A DNA stretch of 11,988 nt from Escherichia coli (GTDB lineage: Bacteria; Pseudomonadota; Gammaproteobacteria; Enterobacterales; Enterobacteriaceae): assembly GCF_041248615.1 (NCBI RefSeq), contig NZ_CP158424.1; one strand, written 5' to 3'. The position numbers were made by a program, and so were the translations under genes. Positions 1-11,988 of the stretch are shown piece by piece. The notes under the pieces were generated by a model. It was not told the origin of the DNA. It made no database searches and was given only the letters and a program-made list of their open reading frames with translations. The first letter of the stretch is position 1; each line of letters begins with the position of its first letter.

Positions 1-422
1 TACGCACTCAATTCCGGAGGGGGAGTGTAGGGAAGTGCCTGATTTATTTTATGTACGCGCAAAAATGAGATAGCTTTTATTAGATATCATCAGCCCTGTC
101 TGCATCAGTCAGCTCCTTACAGCGTCAGGAGTACTGATGAAGGGGGGAACGTTCCTGCGTTTTTGCAAAGGCAATCCGGCTAGAGGCTTTACTACGCAGA
201 AACATTCCGGACAACTTTTTACCCCAGTGTAACCTGTAGATCAACCAGATTTTGTTGCAGTAAAAATACAGTGGTTTCGCATTTGTAATATTTGTCACAA
301 AAATAACATCAATATGTTGGTTTTCTGTTGATAAATGGTTTGGTCGCTGATTATGATTTCCTTGTACTCCACAGGAGTACAGTCATGTGCATACTAAAAT
401 CCGTGTTTTCGATAAAATTAAG

Positions 423-449
423 GCCGTGATACAGAATCACGGCTTTTTT
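423..449 (+). terminator. Putative rho-independent terminator
   Basis: Hairpin GCCGTGAT (423-430) / loop acaga / ATCACGGC (436-443) followed by T6 (444-449). Read directly from sequence. Confidence 0.5.
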
Positions 450-617
450 CTTGCCTGAAAGGATCATTTACGCTAGAAGAGTTATGAGCGCGTCTCTGGT
501 GTTTGTTGCAGGGATAATATCTAATATGGGGCACCGGAAACGCGCTCTCCCTTCGTATACAGAATGCCCATTAATTTCTTCTTCCTGATTTTCCAGACAT
601 ATATTCTTGTGTAAATT

Positions 618-702
618 AAAAAACAGAGCGTGTTTCTGGTGTGAATTTGTTGGCTACAATGTGCATTGTTGTTCTGTGTTCCAGAAACACGCTTCTTTTT
701 TG
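618..702. repeat. Long inverted repeat with about 41-bp spacer, A-run upstream and T-run downstream
   Basis: Left arm aaaaaaCAGAGCGTGTTTCTGG (618-639) pairs with right arm CCAGAAACACGCTTCttttttg (681-702); 13-bp perfect core AGCGTGTTTCTGG. Could be a large-loop terminator, sRNA structure or protein-binding site. Confidence 0.45.
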
Positions 703-826
703 AGATGCACATCAGTCTGATACAAAGAGGGATGGTTGTATCTGTGTCAGAGTTTTGTTATTTTTTTGTATGCTCAGTTATTGATGGTTAATAATATCAA
801 GAAAATCAGCAAGTTCCTTACGCTAC

Positions 827-851
827 CCCTCTTCAGTAGAGGGTTTTTTTT
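827..851 (+). terminator. Rho-independent terminator
   Basis: Stem CCCTCT (827-832) / loop tcagt / AGAGGG (838-843) followed by T8 (844-851). Confidence 0.6.
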
Positions 852-995
852 ATCTGGTACGCCGTAAAACCCGGTCCTTCAGGGCGTAGAGGATGTCAAA
901 AATTTCTTCGAAAGGTAATACCCGATATCCCGAAGGAATAACAACGAAGAGGATACAGATAAAGACATAATACGGATAAGTCATCAGGAGGAAGT

Positions 996-1133
996 ATGTC
1001 TTGGGTGAAACTGACGGAAGCAGAACGTAAGTGTAGTTGCGATGATTATGCTGCACAGGTTGCACAGTTAAAGTTGTCCGGCAGAGATAAATTGCCACGG
1101 GAAGTTAGAGAAAAGTGCGGGAAAATGTCTTAA
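996..1133 (+). CDS. Candidate small protein (45 aa), unknown function
   Basis: ATG 996 preceded by AGGAGG (986-991); translates MSWVKLTEAERKCSCDDYAAQVAQLKLSGRDKLPREVREKCGKMS, stop TAA 1131-1133. Below the ORF-track length cutoff. A 34-codon ORF (1136-1240) follows 2 nt later in another frame. No homolog recognised. Confidence 0.3.
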   Translation: MSWVKLTEAERKCSCDDYAAQVAQLKLSGRDKLPREVREKCGKMS

Positions 1134-1394
1134 GAATGATTCTGGAAGAACGAAAAGTAAGAAGCGCAAAGGCTATGAGGGCAAAAGAGTATCGTGCCGC
1201 AGCGAATACTTTTACCTGGCAGCCTGTACGGCGCAGGTGAATAGACATTCCCCTGACTCATCCTGCTCCCCTTGGCGGCGAAGGGGATTAATCCCTATCC
1301 TGTAACTTCTATTTTGTGGAATCGAAAACAGCCGAAAATTGTGAAAAAAAACCGTTTCAGTCGTCTCAGTAAGGAAATTCGCTTGTGATTCACC

Positions 1395-1545
1395 TGGATG
1401 CATAGGTATGCATAAGGTTAAAATTTATCAGGCGCGATCGCGGTAGTTTTTCGGGGGGGTTGTTGCCATTTTTACCTGTCTGCTGCCGTGATTGCGCTGA
1501 ATGCATTTCAGCGGTGCGTATAATTAAGGGATTATGGTAAATCCA
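1395..1545 (+). other. cer-like XerCD site-specific recombination site (plasmid multimer resolution) with upstream accessory region
   Basis: Core 1513-1542 GGTGCGTATAA-TTAAGGGA-TTATGGTAAAT matches the ColE1 cer XerC-arm/central-region/XerD-arm organisation as I recall it (one mismatch in the XerC arm). The about 120 bp upstream resembles cer accessory sequence (PepA/ArgR region). Accessory boundary is approximate. Confidence 0.75.
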
Positions 1546-4641: not shown

Positions 4642-5154
4642 CCAGAGTTTATATGCTATTACTGGTTGGAGGCAGAGGGCGTAAGTTATGAAAAAAGAGC
4701 AATAATACAGGCAGATATAAAAGATAAGCAAAGTAAGATCGTTCTCAGACATCAATCGAACAGGTCTTCCCGATGTTGTTAACTCGAAGTTATGCCACAA
4801 GAAAAAATAAGCATAAAAAATACACAAAAAGGGGGACAGTATACAAGCTGTTATGATTTTTTTTCTGTCTGTTATTTTGGTGGTTCTTGTGTGTTTGAAT
4901 AGCATGATGAAAGCTATAAATGCTAATAATGGTGCGCTCTTACCGTAGATATCCATCACCTTTGTCATCACAGGGTTATATGAAGAAATTACTGAAGGTA
5001 TATTTTGAGTATTATCGAAAATGATGCGGATTAAATAGAAGTTGGGGTTTGATGTATAAGTTATAAAAATAATAATTAATGGGATTATACCCGCGAAAGT
5101 AATCAAAAAAAGCATCCTGTTTAAATCTTTGTTGTAAGTGTACTCTTTTTGCAT
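4630..5154 (-). CDS. Colicin immunity protein, A-type (four-TM inner-membrane protein, 174 aa)
   Basis: Antisense to the colicin gene, as in pore-forming colicin operons. Several hydrophobic segments. Motifs SSYNPVMTKVMDIY and NFELTTSGRPVRLM match the colicin A immunity protein (Cai) as recalled. GGGAG 10 nt upstream of ATG 5154. Confidence 0.9.
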   Translation of the reverse strand: MQKEYTYNKDLNRMLFLITFAGIIPLIIIFITYTSNPNFYLIRIIFDNTQNIPSVISSYNPVMTKVMDIYGKSAPLLAFIAFIMLFKHTRTTKITDRKKIITACILSPFLCIFYAYFFLWHNFELTTSGRPVRLMSENDLTLLIFYICLYYCSFFITYALCLQPVIAYKLWKER

Positions 5155-5469: not shown

Positions 5470-5579
5470 GCAAACAAAAAAACCACCGCTACCAACGGTG
5501 GTTTGTTTGCCGGATCAAGAGCTACCAACTCTTTTTCCGAAGGTAACTGGCTTGGAGGAGCACAGTCACCAAAACCTGT
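5470..5579 (-). ncRNA. RNAI: RNA I, antisense copy-number and incompatibility regulator
   Basis: Complement of the first about 110 nt of RNA II. Stem-loop 1 (AACCACCGCTACCAACGGTGGTT) is conserved with pMB1; distal stem-loop sequence (5553-5579) diverges. Ends are approximate. Confidence 0.8.
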
Positions 5580-6637: not shown

Positions 6638-6994
6638 ATGGGGGTAATGATACCGATGAAACGCGAGAGGATGCTCACGATACGGGTTACTGATGATGAA
6701 CATGCCCGGTTACTGGAACGCTGTGAGGGTAAACAACTGGCGGTATGGATGCGGCGGGTCTGCCTGGGTGAGCCGGTTGCCCGTTCCGGGAAGCTGCCGA
6801 CACTGGCACCGCCGTTACTGCGTCAGCTGGCCGCCATCGGGAATAACCTGAATCAGACAGCGAGGAAGGTGAACAGCGGGCAGTGGTCTTCCGGTGACCG
6901 GGTTCAGGTAGTGGCCGCACTGATGGCCATCGGGGAGGAGCTGCGCCGGCTGCGTCTGGCCGTCAGGGAACAGGGGGCGCGGGATGATAGTTAA
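6638..6994 (+). CDS. mbeC: Mobilisation protein MbeC/MobC (relaxosome accessory protein)
   Basis: MLTIRVTDDEHARLLERCEGKQLAVWMRR... matches the MobC N-terminal remnant retained in pBR322 and the ColE1 MbeC family. Divergent from rop. Start could be ATG 6638, 6656 or 6671; 6638 has the best SD spacing. Confidence 0.85.
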   Translation: MGVMIPMKRERMLTIRVTDDEHARLLERCEGKQLAVWMRRVCLGEPVARSGKLPTLAPPLLRQLAAIGNNLNQTARKVNSGQWSSGDRVQVVAALMAIGEELRRLRLAVREQGARDDS

Positions 6995-8549
6995 GTTTCA
7001 TGCCAGGGGAAAAGGTGGTGGCAGTGGTCCGGTTGATTACCTGCTGGGAAGGGAGCGTAACCGGGAAGGGGCAACGGTGCTTCAGGGTAATCCGGAAGAA
7101 GTCCGGGAACTCATCGATGCCACGCCATTTGCGAAGAAATACACGTCAGGTGTTCTGTCGTTCGCGGAGAAGGAGCTGCCGCCGGGAGGACGTGAAAAAG
7201 TGATGGCGAGCTTTGAGCGTGTACTGATGCCCGGTCTCGAAAAAAATCAGTACAGCATCCTGTGGGTGGAGCACCAGGACAAGGGACGGCTTGAGCTGAA
7301 TTTTGTCATTCCGAACATGGAGCTACAGAGCGGAAAACGCCTCCAGCCGTACTACGACCGGGCAGACAGGCCGAGAATTGATGCCTGGCAGACGCTGGTT
7401 AATCACCATTACGGGCTGCATGACCCCAACGCCCCGGAGAACCGCCGGACGCTGACTCTCCCTGATAACCTGCCGGAAACGAAACAGGCGCTTGCTGAGA
7501 GCGTCACACGCGGGATAGACGCTCTTTATCATGTCGGGGAGATAAAAGGCCGTCAGGATGTGATTCAGGCGCTCACAGAGGCGGGGCTTGAAGTGGTCAG
7601 AGTGACGCGAAGCAGCATCAGTATTGCAGACCCGAACGGCGGGAAGAATATCAGGCTGAAAGGAGCATTCTATGAGCAATCTTTTACAGACGGGCGCGGA
7701 GTTCGAGAAAAAGCTGAAAGAGAGAGCCGCATCTACAGAGAAAATGCTGAACGACGAGTTCAGGAAGCTCGAAGAATCTGTAAACAGGGAACTGACCTCA
7801 AACGAATCTTTAATCAGGAACGCTATCAACGCCCATACAGCAGCCCTGAAAGAACTTCTGGAGAGGTATCAGAAAACGACCGTCAGCACGATGGACACAC
7901 ACTGGCAAACCGTGCTGAAAATGAGCGTGAAACGCTGGCTGTGGCTGATTATCGTCTCAGTGCTGATGTTTGCCACGACCGGGAGTCTGCTGTGGTACCA
8001 GGGCATGAAGATAAACGCAAACATGAATATTCTCCGCGAGCAGAAAGAGAGTCTGGAGAAGCTGAACGCGAAGACATGGGGCGTGCGTTATCACGAGGAC
8101 AGCAACGGACGTTTTCTGGTGTTGCCGAAGGGGATGAAAGCCGAAACGCACTGGACGGAGGACAACGGCAAACTGAACGCAGTGAGACTGGTACAGGAGT
8201 GACAGAGCATGACGGAGCTGGAAAAACATTTGCTGAACGCCTTAGAGCAACTGCAACAGGACTATATGCAGCGGCTGAACGAATGGGAGAGCGCCTTCGT
8301 GGAATTGCAGAAGATGTTTTCGCTTACGCAACGGGACAACGCGATGCTGAACGAGCGGGTCATGCAGTTGAGTCAGCAGGTGCAGCACTTGAGCGAGCGG
8401 ACAGAACGCTTGAGCCAGTTATACAGCGAGAACAGGAGATAAGGGACGAACGGCTGATACAGGAACGCGAACATGAGTTATCCCTGGAGCGTGAGCGCCA
8501 TCTGGAAATACAGGAACGGACACTGGATGGCCCGTCGCTGGGATGGTAA
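6984..8549 (+). CDS. mbeA: Relaxase MbeA/MobA (ColE1-type, 521 aa)
   Basis: N-terminus MIVKFHARGKGGGSGPVDYLLG... is characteristic of ColE1-family relaxases; start overlaps the mbeC stop; C-terminal half is Arg/Glu-rich as in MbeA. Confidence 0.92.
   Translation: MIVKFHARGKGGGSGPVDYLLGRERNREGATVLQGNPEEVRELIDATPFAKKYTSGVLSFAEKELPPGGREKVMASFERVLMPGLEKNQYSILWVEHQDKGRLELNFVIPNMELQSGKRLQPYYDRADRPRIDAWQTLVNHHYGLHDPNAPENRRTLTLPDNLPETKQALAESVTRGIDALYHVGEIKGRQDVIQALTEAGLEVVRVTRSSISIADPNGGKNIRLKGAFYEQSFTDGRGVREKAERESRIYRENAERRVQEARRICKQGTDLKRIFNQERYQRPYSSPERTSGEVSENDRQHDGHTLANRAENERETLAVADYRLSADVCHDRESAVVPGHEDKRKHEYSPRAERESGEAEREDMGRALSRGQQRTFSGVAEGDESRNALDGGQRQTERSETGTGVTEHDGAGKTFAERLRATATGLYAAAERMGERLRGIAEDVFAYATGQRDAERAGHAVESAGAALERADRTLEPVIQREQEIRDERLIQEREHELSLERERHLEIQERTLDGPSLGW
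7672..8202 (+). CDS. mbeB: MbeB/MobB mobilisation protein, nested in an alternative frame of mbeA
   Basis: ATG 7672 with AGGAG upstream; 176 aa with a predicted TM segment (WLWLIIVSVLMFATTGSLLW). Nested arrangement matches ColE1 mbeB. Confidence 0.75.
   Translation: MSNLLQTGAEFEKKLKERAASTEKMLNDEFRKLEESVNRELTSNESLIRNAINAHTAALKELLERYQKTTVSTMDTHWQTVLKMSVKRWLWLIIVSVLMFATTGSLLWYQGMKINANMNILREQKESLEKLNAKTWGVRYHEDSNGRFLVLPKGMKAETHWTEDNGKLNAVRLVQE
8209..8442 (+). CDS. mbeD: MbeD/MobD (77 aa coiled-coil protein), nested within mbeA
   Basis: ATG 8209 with AGGAG 9 nt upstream; helical, Gln/Leu-rich sequence; position directly after mbeB as in ColE1. Confidence 0.7.
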   Translation: MTELEKHLLNALEQLQQDYMQRLNEWESAFVELQKMFSLTQRDNAMLNERVMQLSQQVQHLSERTERLSQLYSENRR

Positions 8550-8769
8550 CCAAAGACAGGCTAAAATGTTGTCAGCGCGTTTCCGGTGCATTTTTTTGGA
8601 TAATGGTTGGTTCGGGGCACCAGGAACGAGCTTCAGTCAGGCCTTGCTGAAAACACAGGAACGCGTTAAAACGCATACGGACGCGTTTCTGGCGGTCAAA
8701 AACCACGGGGTTAGTGTGGGTAGTGTGTATAGCAACAGGAGCCTGGAACGCGTTCCGCTTCTTCTGTAA
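8473..8769 (+). CDS. Hypothetical ORF overlapping the mbeA 3' end (possibly mbeE-like)
   Basis: ATG 8473 with AGGA 7 nt upstream; 98 aa; extends 220 bp beyond the mbeA stop. No recognisable motifs. Confidence 0.3.
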   Translation: MSYPWSVSAIWKYRNGHWMARRWDGNQRQAKMLSARFRCIFLDNGWFGAPGTSFSQALLKTQERVKTHTDAFLAVKNHGVSVGSVYSNRSLERVPLLL

Positions 8770-9498
8770 TAGACGCCAGAATGCGTTTAATGCTTCTTCT
8801 GATGGTATCAGAGAGGAGCAGCTTGAGTTATTCCTGTTGGCCACAGAGCGTAATTATCTCCTTTTCAGATCCACACGGGGATACGTCAGAGTAGGAACTG
8901 AGCAAGGATTACTGAAAGATACTTTTTGCCAGAAAAAAATCCTCATACATGATGAGGATAAAGTCTTAAAGGTCCATTCTATGGAGTGTCGGATTGAAAA
9001 ATTTCTCCGGATGATATCCTTCACAGTTTAAATGTGATTTCAACCATAAGTTTTTTATGGATTTTGTTAAATAAAAAAGAATTGAGTCGTGTTTCTGATA
9101 TGTCTTAATATAATAAGTGAACAGTTATAAAATAATTGTGTTATATTTATTGTGAGTTTGATGTTATGTTCTGCATAAATAACTGTAGTTTAGAATATTA
9201 TTCTTTTATATTTATAGCTGTGAGATGATAAATTATAAGTGTTCTTTGTGCTATAAAGAACCCCCCGTATAAGGGGGGGAAAGATGGGTTTACTTCTTTT
9301 TAGTCCATGCCCTGGTGAGCTACATGAAGCTCGACACTACAGTAAAAATTTGGCAGTTTTTTTGAACTTTACGCAAGCAATTTATTTACATTGTAAAGAA
9401 AACCCCCTCAATTTGCGTATTACCGTGAAGGAGATCGGTGAGTAACATCGATGGAGATCGGTTCGTGTCACTTTCACAGAACCGTTTTTAAATTACCT

Positions 9499-10248
9499 TC
9501 ACTGATCTCCTTCGGTCAACGGAGATTGTATTTTCCGCATTGATTCTCCTTTAAGTTCGATCTTGATACTGCCATGAACCAGTCGATCTAGGATGGCATC
9601 CGCATGTGTGGAGTCTCCGATCATTTTGTACCAGTTTTCCACCGGCAACTGGCTCACTACGATGATTGAGCCTCGTTGGTACATCAGATCCACTATTTCC
9701 AGCAGGTCGCTACGCTGTTCTGATGAGAGAGGTTCCAGCCCCCAGTCATCCAGAAGCAGCAGATCGCTATTATTCAGCCTGGTCAAAAGTTTGCTGTATC
9801 TTCCATCAGCATGCCCCTGATAGCACTGTTCCATCAGCGCTTTAAGGCGATAATAGTAGACCTTGTATCCCTGTCGGCAGGCATTATGACCAAGTGCACA
9901 TGCCAGGAACGTTTTACCGCTGCCGGTGGCCCCGGTCAGTAAAATATTTTGTTTCAGGGTTAACCAGTTTCCCTGACTGAGTGAACGGATGAGGGCCCTG
10001 TCCAGCCCTCTATTGTTACGATAATCCAGCTTTGATAACTCAGCATTAAGTCTGAACCGTGCATGTTTGATCAGACGCTCTGCCTTCCTGTTTTCACGGC
10101 AGGTTAGTTCTTCTGCTGTCAGTAATGACAGGCGTTCTTCGAAGCCCAGCTCCTGGTATGTGCCCGGCTGAGCAAGTTGCTTTTTAAGCGCATCACGGAA
10201 GCCGGTGAGTTTAAGTGCGGTCAGTTGTTCGTAAAGATGATTCATCAT
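9499..10248 (-). CDS. istB: IstB-like ATPase helper of IS21-family transposition (249 aa)
   Basis: Walker A motif GATGSGKT and Walker B-like LLLLDDWG; size and position directly downstream of istA. Confidence 0.92.
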   Translation of the reverse strand: MMNHLYEQLTALKLTGFRDALKKQLAQPGTYQELGFEERLSLLTAEELTCRENRKAERLIKHARFRLNAELSKLDYRNNRGLDRALIRSLSQGNWLTLKQNILLTGATGSGKTFLACALGHNACRQGYKVYYYRLKALMEQCYQGHADGRYSKLLTRLNNSDLLLLDDWGLEPLSSEQRSDLLEIVDLMYQRGSIIVVSQLPVENWYKMIGDSTHADAILDRLVHGSIKIELKGESMRKIQSPLTEGDQ

Positions 10249-10259
10249 TGGATCCCGTA

Positions 10260-11801
10260 TCAGTGGTAATACTCACTGCCGCGTACGTTTTCGTGTTCCA
10301 TCGTGGATAACAGATCTGGTTTTGGATCCTGAACAGGTTGTTTATCCAGACCTTTTTCCAGGATCGATTTAATACCTGACAGACGCCATACCTTTGTTTT
10401 CAGAGCTCTTGCACATGCTGCATTAAGTCTGGCTTTACTGTATTTTTTATGAAGGTTCAGGAGTCCAAGGCAGAAGCGATAGCTTTGTTCCGGATGTGGA
10501 CGAGAGTTCAGTATATGAAGCACATAACTATGAGTTTCACTGCCTATGTGCCCCGCCCATTCCAGAAGACGCTCTGGCGTCCAGGTGGCATGCTGTCGAT
10601 GAGCTTCAGGCATGTGCTCGTTGCGGGTACTGTAGCCATAAGTACGCTTGCGCGGGTGCACAGCAACCTCCTGCCCCTGATTGAAGAGTCTTACCAGTTC
10701 TCCGGAGATCCATGCTTCCAGTTGCTGGCCTAACAGCGAACATGGAACCGAGTAGTAATGTTTGTCGATTTCCACGTGGTAATCGGCATGAACTCTGACT
10801 TTCTTCACCAGGGTGTAACTGTAACTGGCTTCAGGAAGAGGCTTCAGTGCGGGTTTATCAAGCTGGATGAAGAGTTCTGCACGTGAATAACCCAACTTCT
10901 GCATTATTTTGTTATTCAGTCTTTCCAGCAACTCCCGAATGCGCTGATTAAGCGATGCAAGGCTGTAGAAGATCTCATGCCTGATTCGGGCCATGATCCA
11001 GCGTTCAACAACCTGAACGCCAACTTCAGCTTTGGCTTTATCTTTCGGTTTACGTGGCCGCGCAGGCAAAACTGCGACATTATAATGCTCAAGCATCTGC
11101 TGGTAGGTAGGGTTAACGTCAGGATCATACTTACATGCCCTGGATGTGGCGCTTTTCAGATTGTCCGGAACAACAAGTTCAGGAACGCCACCCAACCACT
11201 GGAAGCAGCGAACATGACTCATCACCCAGTCTTCAAGCTGCTGAGACCAGGTGGCCTCTGCCCATGTGTAACTTGATGCCCCGAGAACAGCTACGATGAC
11301 CTGAGCAGTTCTTATTTCTCCGGTCTCAGGGTCGGTAACGCCAACGGTAGGTCCACAGTAATCAACGAAAAGTTTTTCGCCAGCTTTATGTACCTGACGC
11401 ATTGATGGTGAAGTGGTTTTGAGCCATTCACGGTACATCCGGCAGTAATGGTTATAGCTGTAAAAACCGCCTGGATTACGCTCACAGTATTCTTCCCAGA
11501 GTAGCTGCAGCGTCACGCATTTATTACGCAGTTCCCGGTGTACTGTAGCCCAGTCAGGCAGAGAGTGCTTCTTCATCTTAACCTGGGTCTGAAGGAACGC
11601 ATGTTTTAGTTTTGTATCATCCCATCCTGTAGGTAAGGGCCACTGCTTTATGCCAAGTTGAGCCGCCCGATTAGCATATCTGGATACAACGGAAGGGGAG
11701 ATTGCAAGACTACGACCAATTTGTCGATGGCTGAGTCCAACACCGTATTTAAGCCTAAGAATTTCTTTAAGTTTTCTCATAGAAATTGGAACTGTTGGCA
11801 T
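10260..11801 (-). CDS. istA: IstA transposase, IS21 family (513 aa)
   Basis: N-terminal HTH (LKEILRLKYGVGLSHRQIGRSLAISPSVVSRY) followed by a long catalytic region; AGGA 5 nt upstream of ATG 11801; 11-bp gap to istB. Confidence 0.92.
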   Translation of the reverse strand: MPTVPISMRKLKEILRLKYGVGLSHRQIGRSLAISPSVVSRYANRAAQLGIKQWPLPTGWDDTKLKHAFLQTQVKMKKHSLPDWATVHRELRNKCVTLQLLWEEYCERNPGGFYSYNHYCRMYREWLKTTSPSMRQVHKAGEKLFVDYCGPTVGVTDPETGEIRTAQVIVAVLGASSYTWAEATWSQQLEDWVMSHVRCFQWLGGVPELVVPDNLKSATSRACKYDPDVNPTYQQMLEHYNVAVLPARPRKPKDKAKAEVGVQVVERWIMARIRHEIFYSLASLNQRIRELLERLNNKIMQKLGYSRAELFIQLDKPALKPLPEASYSYTLVKKVRVHADYHVEIDKHYYSVPCSLLGQQLEAWISGELVRLFNQGQEVAVHPRKRTYGYSTRNEHMPEAHRQHATWTPERLLEWAGHIGSETHSYVLHILNSRPHPEQSYRFCLGLLNLHKKYSKARLNAACARALKTKVWRLSGIKSILEKGLDKQPVQDPKPDLLSTMEHENVRGSEYYH

Positions 11802-11988
11802 AGGTATCCTTTACCGGAATGGCAAAAGATACAGATCAACACACCTGTGAAGTTCCAATAACATTGATGGAGATCACTGAATAACAAAATGAGTCAAAAG
11901 TGATCTCCATCGATGTTATTCAGCGATCTGTTCAAATGTTATTACCCGATCTCGATGGAAGTTATTGAGTGATCTCCTTTCATGAAAA

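What the first reader, a model, noticed from the sequence alone, without database searches (positions are those of the whole stretch)
365..449. SD sequestered in a perfect palindrome, 14-codon ORF, then an intrinsic terminator
GTACTCC-aca-GGAGTAC (365-381) is a perfect 7-bp palindrome containing the SD for ATG 385 (MCILKSVFSIKLRP). The ORF stop overlaps the terminator hairpin at 423-449. This layout resembles a leader-peptide or attenuator element, or a small RNA with a translated mini-ORF.
Basis: seen in the sequence. Interest (0 to 1): 0.35.

Follow-up and report, generated by a model that had tools for sequence, protein, structure and literature searches.

The report
Unannotated small-RNA gene candidate on colicin plasmid
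The hairpin, 14-codon reading frame and terminator are real and sit right behind a good promoter on a ColE1-type colicin R plasmid, but they look like a short non-coding RNA gene of unknown target, not a leader peptide or attenuator.

Summary
The window is the whole 11,988-bp E. coli plasmid p14408_3 (colicin R, ColE1-like). The features are as described, with the hairpin one base to the left: hairpin 364-380 holding GGAG, ATG 385, 14 codons, stop 427-429, terminator stem 420-446 and T-run 444-449. A sigma-70-like promoter (TTGATA-18-TATGAT, 328-357) puts the start at about 364, the first base of the hairpin. This predicts an RNA of about 87 nt with a 5' stem-loop, an A/U-rich single strand and an intrinsic terminator (fold z -4.3).

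The unit occurs only on plasmids, in three lineages, inside a 1.13-kb non-coding, hairpin-rich module downstream of the mob genes. Between the two intact lineages the module is about 77% identical. Its longest identical run (51 nt, 373-423) is exactly the RNA body, with no synonymous changes. Variation falls in the loops or is compensated in the terminator stem.

- The one amino-acid change (P14S) comes from a compensated stem change.
- In the third, degenerate lineage the ORF is ATG-TAA.
- No regulatory codons, no above-chance antiterminator and no downstream gene were found.

Best reading: an unannotated plasmid small RNA with an incidental mini-ORF. Expression, target and function are untested. 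No Rfam or literature match.

The parts
328..357 (+). Sigma-70-like promoter: -35 TTGATA (328-333), 18-nt spacer, -10 TATGAT (352-357). Predicted +1 at about 364.
   Evidence: 10 of 12 matches. In lineage B the -10 is identical and the -35 is TTGCCG, while the spacer and upstream DNA diverge. In lineage C the -10 is lost. A consensus match only; no transcript data.
364..380 (+). 5' stem-loop GTACTCC-ACA-GGAGTAC (7 bp, 3-nt loop; 363/381 could add an eighth pair). GGAG 374-377 is the SD-like sequence of the mini-ORF.
   Evidence: -8.1 kcal/mol; pair probability at least 0.98. In lineage B the loop is TGA and the stem is unchanged.
381..419 (+). A/U-rich, mostly single-stranded body (AGUCAUGUGCAUACUAAAAUCCGUGUUUUCGAUAAAAUUA); candidate seed or protein-binding region.
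   Evidence: 100% identical between lineages A and B. It lies within the longest identical run of the 1.13-kb module alignment (51 nt, 373-423). The core CGTGTTTTCGATAA..TTAAGG is kept in lineage C. Mostly unpaired in the ensemble.
385..429 (+). 14-codon mini-ORF MCILKSVFSIKLRP plus TGA; probably incidental.
   Evidence: P14S in lineage B; ATG-TAA in lineage C. Not amphipathic beyond chance. Not in the protein collection.
420..449 (+). Intrinsic terminator: stem 420-430/436-446, loop ACAGA, T-run 444-449.
   Evidence: -14.8 kcal/mol. Compensatory C424:G442 to U:A in lineage B. Two G:C to A:U double changes in lineage C, with one broken pair each in B' and C. On the minus strand it is only a weak terminator.
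364..450 (+). Predicted RNA of about 87 nt (the unit as a whole).
   Evidence: Inferred from the promoter and terminator. Fold z = -4.3 here, -5.3 and -3.0 in lineages B and B'. No Rfam family.
588..615 (-). Convergent promoter-like site (TTTACA-16-GAAAAT). A minus-strand RNA from about 581 would run into the same hairpin and overlap the 3' end of the plus-strand RNA.
   Evidence: 9 of 12, a weak match. Hexamers kept in lineage B (sequence). Fold of 581-412 on the minus strand z = -4.2. Inference only.
485..546 (.). Long inverted repeat GAGCGCGTCTCTGGTG / CACCGGAAACGCGCTC, inside the most conserved block just after the terminator (451-553).
   Evidence: 97% identity between A and B. It overlaps the 34-codon ORF 484-588, which shows 2 synonymous and 6 non-synonymous codon differences.
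619..701 (.). Second long inverted repeat with related arms; has the look of a bidirectional terminator (A-run before, T-run after).
   Evidence: I1, D3; copies of the motif GCGYGTTTCYGG.
827..851 (+). Third plus-strand terminator, at the right end of the shared module.
7..822 (.). Right part of the 1.13-kb non-coding module shared with the other plasmid lineages. The left part is 9105-9414. In this window the two parts are separated by ISEc12.
   Evidence: Alignment. IS ends TGCGTA...TACGCA with a 7-bp duplication CTCAATT at 9408-9414 and 7-13.

Best explanation
The unit is a small, stand-alone RNA gene on a ColE1-type plasmid. A sigma-70 promoter (328-357) starts transcription at about G364. 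The first 17 nt fold at once into a stem-loop, a form that stabilises many bacterial small RNAs. About 40 nt of A/U-rich single strand follow. The GC-rich hairpin and U-tract at 420-449 then release an RNA of about 87 nt. The invariant single-stranded body would be the working part, pairing with another RNA or binding a protein such as Hfq or ProQ. The 14-codon frame is a by-product: its SD is the 3' arm of the hairpin and is not available to ribosomes.

Shown here: the sequence anatomy, the predicted fold, and the pattern of conservation and compensation.

Inferred: transcription from this promoter, termination at 449, non-translation, and any regulatory role. The target is unknown.
For: - Promoter 10/12, with +1 on the first base of the hairpin.
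- Stable fold: z -4.3, with -5.3 and -3.0 in the lineage B variants. Both hairpins are near-certain in the ensemble and the body is mostly unpaired.
- The longest identical run in the whole 1.13-kb A/B module alignment (about 77% identity overall) is 51 nt at 373-423, which is the RNA body. None of the 13 third-codon positions has changed.
- Differences between lineages fall in both loops (ACA to TGA; ACAGA to TCTGT) or are compensated in the terminator stem: C:G to U:A in B, and two G:C to A:U in C.
- The promoter hexamers are kept while the spacer and upstream DNA diverge.
- The U-tract and the A/U-rich stretch next to the terminator match the usual build of enterobacterial terminator-ended small RNAs (established knowledge).
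- No protein-level signal: the small ORFs looked up are absent from a 15-billion-protein collection, and none has a Pfam hit above the curated cut-off.
- The mini-ORF collapses to ATG-TAA in lineage C.
Against: - No expression data of any kind.
- Only three lineages exist, so covariation rests on three double changes, and there is one broken pair each in B' and C.
- Lineage C looks decayed: the -10 is lost, the terminator is weak and the fold z is -1.0. Part of the 'conservation' may therefore be shared ancestry.
- Lineage B has only four U after the stem.
- High conservation continues past the terminator (451-553, 97%), which an 87-nt RNA alone does not explain.
- No target was found on the plasmid above chance.
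- No Rfam family.
- The core resembles a motif repeated in the module (GCGYGTTTCYGG), so a DNA-level role cannot be excluded.
Confidence: 0.5

Rival explanations
1. Leader or attenuator, possibly part of a type I toxin-antitoxin-like pair. The terminator at 420-449 is a conditional stop in the 5' leader of a longer plus-strand transcript. That transcript carries the very conserved block 451-553 and the 34-codon ORF 484-588 (MSASLVFVAGIISNMGHRKRALPSYTECPLISSS). A convergent minus-strand RNA from the promoter-like site at 615-588 is antisense to that ORF and shares the hairpin as its terminator. A ribosome on the mini-ORF, whose stop lies inside the 5' arm, would block the hairpin and allow read-through.
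For: - The stop codon 427-429 lies in the terminator's 5' arm, so a terminating ribosome would cover it (sequence).
- The block 451-553 is the most conserved 87-nt window of the module.
- The minus-strand promoter-like site is kept in lineage B.
- The minus-strand RNA 581-412 folds with z -4.2.
- The 34-codon ORF has the same length in lineages A and B, and its start is buried in a long hairpin.
- Convergent RNAs sharing a terminator, with a 5' hairpin hiding the SD, are known from par of pAD1 and from the Bacillus bsrG/SR4 pair (my own knowledge).
Against: - The 34-codon ORF shows 2 synonymous against 6 non-synonymous codon differences, has a poor SD, and has only about 13 hydrophobic residues.
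- It has no Pfam match above the curated cut-off and is not in the protein collection.
- The mini-ORF's SD is locked in the hairpin.
- The candidate antiterminator is no better than chance.
- Lineage C has neither ORF.
- The minus-strand promoter is weak (9/12, -10 GAAAAT), and the hairpin is a poor terminator on that strand.
Confidence: 0.17
2. No dedicated RNA function. The region is a stack of terminators and hairpins between the mob operon and cer/exc that insulates neighbouring functions from read-through, or it is a decaying remnant. The promoter match and the ORF are fortuitous. The terminator simply ends longer transcripts coming from upstream.
For: - Terminator-like sites on both strands are strongly enriched in the module: 9 against 1.5 expected.
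- Single 7-bp palindromes and 10/12 promoter matches occur by chance. Promoter-like sites in 1-1500 number 2 found against 2.4 expected.
- Lineage C is degenerate.
- The element is rare: 36 of 5,426 complete E. coli genomes.
- An upstream promoter-like site could feed a transcript of about 690 nt that ends at the same terminator.
Against: - An insulator needs only the hairpin and the U-tract. It does not explain a 51-nt invariant single-stranded stretch that is the longest identical run in the module.
- It does not explain the retention of the -10 and the TTG of the -35 amid diverged flanks.
- It does not explain a 5' hairpin that begins exactly at the predicted +1.
Confidence: 0.25
3. The product is the 14-residue peptide MCILKSVFSIKLRP, or the RNA is dual-function. 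The hairpin keeps translation low, and the peptide acts on the membrane or on a protein.
For: - GGAG lies 7 nt before the ATG.
- The frame is intact, at 14 codons, in lineages A, B and B'.
- The peptide is cationic and partly hydrophobic.
Against: - There are no synonymous changes in a module that is otherwise 23% diverged, which points to nucleotide-level constraint.
- The only residue change tracks a stem compensation.
- The hydrophobic moment is no higher than in 48% of shuffles.
- ATG-TAA in lineage C.
- The SD is paired with probability above 0.98.
Confidence: 0.06

Closest known systems
Terminator-ended trans-acting small RNAs of enterobacteria (Hfq- or ProQ-associated class)
   Same: Own promoter, length of about 87 nt, 5' stem-loop at +1, A/U-rich single strand next to a GC-rich intrinsic terminator with a U-tail, and an invariant single-stranded stretch that could act as a seed.
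   Different: No target, chaperone binding or expression has been shown. It is carried only on a few plasmid lineages, has no chromosomal homologue and matches no Rfam family.
Plasmid antisense control RNAs (RNAI of ColE1, present in this window at 5474-5577; Sok; CopA; FinP)
   Same: Short, untranslated, plasmid-borne, constitutive-type promoter, stem-loops and a terminator.
   Different: Those RNAs lie opposite the 5' region of the gene they control. Here the opposite strand has no conserved ORF or known transcript. The unit is 5 kb from the replication origin and has no sequence or model similarity to RNAI.
Rcd RNA of the ColE1 cer site
   Same: A short non-coding RNA on a ColE1-type plasmid that is not part of copy-number control.
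   Different: Rcd is transcribed from inside cer. The cer crossover core of this plasmid is at 1513-1542, about 1.1 kb from the unit, and the sequences are unrelated.
Leader-peptide attenuators (trpL, pheL, hisL; pyrBI leader)
   Same: A very short ORF (trpL is also 14 codons) followed by an intrinsic terminator. As in pyrBI, the end of the ORF overlaps the terminator.
   Different: The SD is sequestered. There is no run of regulatory codons, no antiterminator above chance and no downstream operon. The ORF is not conserved in lineage C.
Convergent type I toxin-antitoxin loci (par of pAD1 RNA I/RNA II; bsrG/SR4)
   Same: A possible pair of convergent RNAs sharing one hairpin terminator, and a 5' hairpin that hides the SD of a tiny ORF.
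   Different: 14 residues is shorter than any known type I toxin, and the peptide has no transmembrane stretch. The minus-strand partner is only a weak prediction. No toxicity data exist.

Membership tests
Terminator-ended regulatory small RNA (Hfq/ProQ class) | Independent transcription unit: own promoter and intrinsic terminator giving a discrete RNA of 50-300 nt | tested here: inconclusive
   Promoter match 10/12 with +1 at 364 and a strong terminator, kept in lineage B. These are predictions only; there is no transcript evidence.
Terminator-ended regulatory small RNA (Hfq/ProQ class) | Structure and single-stranded seed conserved at the nucleotide level, with compensatory changes in stems | tested here: met
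   A 51-nt identical run at 373-423, the longest in the module. Loop-only changes in the 5' hairpin. Three compensated pairs in the terminator across lineages, and two broken pairs. The sample is small: three lineages.
Terminator-ended regulatory small RNA (Hfq/ProQ class) | Identified target RNA or protein partner | tested here: not met
   No complementarity above chance anywhere on the plasmid. The host chromosome and helper plasmids could not be scanned.
Terminator-ended regulatory small RNA (Hfq/ProQ class) | Binding to Hfq or ProQ | not testable with these tools
   Only the sequence context fits (a U-tail of 6 in lineage A and 4 in lineage B, with an A/U-rich stretch before the terminator).
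Leader-peptide transcription attenuator (trp/phe/his type) | Translatable leader ORF with an accessible ribosome-binding site | tested here: not met
   GGAG 374-377 is the 3' arm of a hairpin with pair probability at least 0.98.
Leader-peptide transcription attenuator (trp/phe/his type) | Run of codons for the sensed amino acid | tested here: not met
   MCILKSVFSIKLRP has no tandem or enriched codon run.
Leader-peptide transcription attenuator (trp/phe/his type) | Mutually exclusive antiterminator and terminator helices | tested here: inconclusive
   The helix 382-390:423-430 (-9.4 kcal/mol) forms before the 3' arm is made. However, 26% of shuffled spacers give an equal or better alternative fold, and lineage B' breaks it.
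Leader-peptide transcription attenuator (trp/phe/his type) | Regulated structural genes directly downstream | tested here: not met
   Only a 34-codon ORF without a signature of purifying selection, followed by two more terminators. The next annotated genes are on the other strand.
Type I toxin-antitoxin (convergent, par/Fst-like) | Small hydrophobic membrane toxin (typically 19-60 residues with a transmembrane helix) | tested here: not met
   The mini-ORF has 14 residues and no amphipathic signal. The 34-residue ORF has only about 13 hydrophobic residues and 6 non-synonymous against 2 synonymous differences.
Type I toxin-antitoxin (convergent, par/Fst-like) | Antisense RNA partner overlapping the toxin mRNA | tested here: inconclusive
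   The minus-strand promoter-like site at 615-588 (9/12) and the shared hairpin would give a 3' overlap of about 30-40 nt. No transcript evidence.
Rcd / cer | Transcribed from within the cer Xer recombination site | tested here: not met
   The cer core GGTGCGTATAATTAAGGGATTATGGTAAAT is at 1513-1542, about 1.1 kb away. The query pattern was the ColE1 cer core recalled from memory.
ColE1 RNAI (RF00106) and other Rfam families | Match to the curated covariance model | tested here: not met
   RNAI is found only at 5474-5577. Within 1-1000 the best hit over the unit is suhB/mmgR at 19.6 bits against a threshold of 41, which is a terminator-only resemblance.

The most novel reading that the evidence does not exclude
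The unit is one half of a new plasmid RNA module. The 87-nt plus-strand RNA and a convergent minus-strand RNA share the 420-446 hairpin and pair through their complementary loops and 3' ends. Together they would control the very conserved 451-553 block and its 34-codon ORF as a new toxin-antitoxin-like or stability system. Alternatively, the invariant 40-nt body acts in trans on the host or on the IncK/IncI helper plasmids that often reside with these small plasmids. At least 7 carrier strains hold both the small-plasmid copy and the large-plasmid copy.
Probability: 0.12. Interest if true: 0.55.

Novelty: new member of a known kind. Interest (0 to 1): 0.25.

Why it matters
If it is transcribed, this would be an undescribed small RNA. 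It is carried by a family of mobilizable colicin plasmids common in poultry-associated E. coli, and it has been copied into large IncK2/Z plasmids. Plasmid small RNAs that act beyond copy-number control are few, so a target in the host or in a helper plasmid would be of some interest for plasmid-host cross-talk. As it stands it is a tidy but ordinary candidate. Its main practical value is to correct the reading: it is not a leader peptide or attenuator. It also flags a 1.1-kb unannotated, hairpin-dense module next to the mob genes.

Tried and rejected
- **Rfam.** Gathering and permissive thresholds gave only RNAI at 5474-5577 and nothing credible over the unit.
- **Homologue searches.**
  - Searched by BLAST: E. 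coli complete genomes, PLSDB plasmids and phage records.
  - Searched by exact pattern: GTDB species genomes, JGI metagenomes and IMG/VR.
  - These returned only plasmid copies of three lineages. The metagenome hits were the same variants, the one genome hit (Alteromonadaceae) is a chance match inside coding DNA, and the phage hits are terminator-only at E 0.5.
- **"Two places per record" in IncK plasmids.** I traced this to the inverted loop, which makes the hairpin match on both strands; I did not inspect the second places directly. It is not a second copy.
- **Rcd/cer identity.** Rejected: cer is at 1513-1542.
- **hok/sok or pnd identity.** Rejected: the module has no Hok-like ORF. The only link is a 50-bp motif at 848-903 that lies upstream of a hok gene on one IncI1 plasmid.
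- **Protein-coding or pseudogene reading of the module.** The opposite-strand ORFs are not conserved: the ATG at 467 is lost in lineage B, and the 57-residue and 128-residue ORFs differ by a frameshift. There are no Pfam hits above the curated cut-off and no entries in the protein collection.
- **Antiterminator.** Present, but at chance level.
- **Amphipathic toxic peptide.** Not supported.
- **Plasmid-internal targets.** The best duplex (-26.4 kcal/mol) falls within the range of shuffled controls. Two perfect 10-mers (5012-5021, 1321-1330) are about what chance gives.
- **LexA box near 250-270.** Checked by eye; the spacing is wrong.
- **Literature.** Nothing on this element.

Full report
**What the window is.** Megablast and the RefSeq record show that the window is the complete 11,988-bp plasmid p14408_3 of E. 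coli NRZ14408 (NZ_LT599828.1), rotated by 569 bases. It is a ColE1-type plasmid carrying:
- colicin R, immunity and lysis genes;
- RNAI at 5474-5577;
- rop, mobC and mbeA;
- exc1 and exc2;
- a cer site whose core is at 1513-1542;
- an ISEc12 (IS21 family) insertion.

The finding lies in unannotated DNA between the end of the mob region and cer.

**Checking the observation.**
- The sequence reads GTACTCC-ACA-GGAGTAC at 364-380.
- GGAG is at 374-377 and ATG at 385.
- There are 14 codons (MCILKSVFSIKLRP) and a TGA at 427-429.
- The hairpin AAGGCCGTGAT-ACAGA-ATCACGGCTTT is at 420-446, with six T at 444-449.
- The predicted energies are -8.1 kcal/mol for the 5' hairpin and -14.8 for the terminator.
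- The 364-452 RNA folds at -26.8 kcal/mol, with z -4.3 against dinucleotide shuffles.
- Both helices are essentially certain in the ensemble, and the stretch between them is largely unpaired.

A perfect 7-bp palindrome is not special in itself: there are 19 hits in the window against 4.5 in shuffles. The context is what matters. The best promoter match in the first 1.5 kb (TTGATA-18-TATGAT, 328-357, 10 of 12) ends 7 nt before G364, so the predicted transcript begins with the hairpin. Terminator-like sites are also several-fold enriched in this region (9 against 1.5 expected).

**Relatives.** The unit is found only on plasmids, in 36 of 5,426 complete E. coli genomes. Three lineages exist:
- **Lineage A** is identical in about 20 small ColE1-like plasmids. 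These include pSMS35_8, 8.9-9.4-kb colicin plasmids and a 5.7-kb plasmid without a colicin. One copy has a single change, in the promoter spacer.
- **Lineage B/B'** sits in large IncK2/Z plasmids as part of a fragment of a ColE1-like plasmid bracketed by IS elements.
- **Lineage C** is a much more diverged copy in 5.3-5.6-kb MOBQ plasmids.

Exact-pattern scans of species genomes, metagenomes and viral contigs added no further variants.

In lineages A and B the unit is part of a module of about 1.13 kb (window 9105-9414 plus 7-822). In this window ISEc12 splits the module inside a hairpin, with a 7-bp duplication CTCAATT.

**What the comparison says.**
- The A/B module alignment is about 77% identical overall. 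Its longest identical run is 51 nt at 373-423, which is the 3' arm of the 5' hairpin plus the whole single-stranded body.
- Within the unit, the differences are the 5' hairpin loop (ACA to TGA), the terminator loop (ACAGA to TCTGT, an exact inversion), and one stem pair changed on both sides (C424:G442 to U:A).
- The -10 hexamer and the TTG of the -35 are kept, while the spacer and upstream DNA diverge.
- In lineage C the core ACTAAATTCGTGTTTTCGATAATTTTAAGGCC survives. The terminator stem carries two more double changes (G:C to A:U) and one mismatch.
- Lineage C has also lost the -10, replaced the 5' hairpin with a different and weaker one, and no longer folds better than shuffles (z -1.0). 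C therefore looks like a decaying copy.

**The mini-ORF.**
- None of the 13 third-codon positions between 385 and 423 differs between A and B, although the module is 23% diverged. This points to constraint on the nucleotides and not on the amino acids.
- The only residue change, P14S, is the left half of the compensated stem pair. Its partner lies outside the ORF.
- In lineage C the frame is ATG-TAA.
- The SD is paired with probability above 0.98.
- The peptide is not amphipathic beyond chance.
- Extended to its upstream TTG start, the frame has never been called as a protein in a 15-billion-sequence collection, and it has no Pfam match.

I conclude that the ORF is most likely incidental.

**The attenuator idea.** A helix between 382-390 and 423-430 (-9.4 kcal/mol) can also form before the 3' arm is transcribed. 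But 26% of shuffled spacers give an equal or better alternative fold. There is no run of regulatory codons. Nothing downstream looks like a regulated gene. The 34-codon ORF at 484-588 has 2 synonymous against 6 non-synonymous differences and a poor SD, and it is followed by two further plus-strand terminators at about 700 and 843.

**What remains unexplained.**
- Conservation does not stop at the terminator. The block 451-553, which contains a long inverted repeat at 485-546, is 97% identical and is the most conserved 87-nt window of the module.
- A weak promoter-like site on the minus strand (615-588), conserved in lineage B, would send an RNA into the same hairpin. It would overlap the 3' end of the plus-strand RNA, and the two hairpin loops would be complementary.
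- This convergent layout recalls some type I toxin-antitoxin loci, but no candidate peptide passes the tests for a toxin. I keep it as the main rival and as the most novel reading.
- The conserved core also resembles a motif, GCGYGTTTCYGG, that occurs six times in the window against 0.17 expected. A DNA-level role is therefore not excluded.

**Targets.** Duplex scans of the single-stranded body against both strands of the plasmid gave nothing beyond what shuffled queries give. The two perfect 10-mers found are at chance level. The host chromosome and the helper plasmids could not be scanned.

**Verdict.** The best-supported explanation (about 0.5) is an unannotated, plasmid-borne small RNA gene of about 87 nt whose mini-ORF is incidental.

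| Reading | Probability |
|---|---|
| Stand-alone small RNA gene | about 0.5 |
| Insulator terminators or a relic | about 0.25 |
| Leader or convergent-RNA module | about 0.17 |
| Functional 14-residue peptide | about 0.06 |

There is no Rfam family and no literature on the element. It is a new member of a known kind and of modest interest until expression and a target are shown.

Noticed in passing
window 848-903: The sequence GGTACGCCGTAAAACCCGGTCCTTCAGGGCGTAGAGGATGTCAAA matches about 100 otherwise unrelated plasmids (IncI1, IncFII, IncX-size and P1-like, from Salmonella, Pantoea, Citrobacter and Xylella). In an IncFII plasmid it lies between ccdB and a site-specific integrase gene, where F carries rfsF (my own knowledge). 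In an IncI1 plasmid it lies about 190 bp upstream of a hok gene. In the 5.6-kb plasmid L014, two inverted copies (1025-1066 and 1296-1340) flank 230 bp. It is probably a ResD/rfsF-type recombination site. Its identity is not verified.
   Followed up: partly
window 488-499, 534-545, 628-639, 681-692, 8575-8586, 8681-8692: The motif GCGYGTTTCYGG occurs six times (0.17 expected). Four copies form the arms of two related long inverted repeats (485-546 and 619-701). Similar arms occur in L014 (582-593 and 637-648). The conserved core of the small-RNA candidate (CCGTGTTTTCGA) resembles the motif. Its function is unknown.
   Followed up: partly
window 9415-11988 plus 1-6: ISEc12 (IS21 family: istA 10260-11801, istB 9499-10248) has ends TGCGTA...TACGCA and a 7-bp target duplication CTCAATT (9408-9414 and 7-13). 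It is inserted inside the hairpin CCCCCTC-aattccg-GAGGGGG, which is a minus-strand terminator in IS-free relatives.
   Followed up: yes
window 9262-9414 (IS-free form: L005 1353-1517): There is a second unit of similar build. A G/C hairpin CCCCCC-gtataa-GGGGGG lies just before an ATG, followed by a conserved 26-codon frame (MGLLLFSPCPGELHEARHYSKDLQFF, 92% nucleotide identity between lineages) and then a second hairpin. Both hairpins have their T-runs on the minus strand, so they may bound a minus-strand RNA of about 145 nt. In this window a frameshift and the IS disturb it.
   Followed up: partly
window 431-435 compared with L002 4092-4096: The terminator loop is exactly inverted between lineages (ACAGA against TCTGT) while the stem is kept. 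This is the signature of a hairpin-templated inversion. It also makes BLAST report the locus twice, once on each strand.
   Followed up: yes
window 1513-1542: The cer-type XerC/XerD crossover core GGTGCGTATAATTAAGGGATTATGGTAAAT has one mismatch to the ColE1 core as I recalled it. An ArgR-box-like ATGCATAGGTATGCATAA lies near 1398-1415.
   Followed up: partly
window 6984-8549: RefSeq annotates mbeA as two pseudogene pieces around mbeB, but the window has one uninterrupted 521-codon ORF. This is probably an annotation artefact of the nested mbeB frame.
   Followed up: no
window 996-1239: A 45-codon ORF (MSWVKLTEAERKC...) has a strong SD (AGGAGG) and is seen on 413 contigs in the protein collection as 'hypothetical protein'. 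A possible 34-codon ORF follows it directly. Both are unannotated in RefSeq.
   Followed up: partly
records listed: At least seven strains carry both the small-plasmid copy (lineage A) and the IncK2/Z copy (lineage B): LH10-b-1, GF60, GF43, 135, PKF4, PKF11 and EF5-18-41. Some strains also carry lineage C (LH10-b-1, TUM1886, Ch1). This is far more often than independent assortment of two rare elements would give. It may only reflect poultry-associated clones or mobilization by the large plasmid.
   Followed up: no
L006 3349-3480 (NZ_CP029742.1): Next to the captured module in the IncK2/Z plasmid there is a partial 'tolA family protein' pseudogene beside nikB, among IS3, IS66 and IS1 elements. 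It may be another remnant of a colicin plasmid.
   Followed up: no
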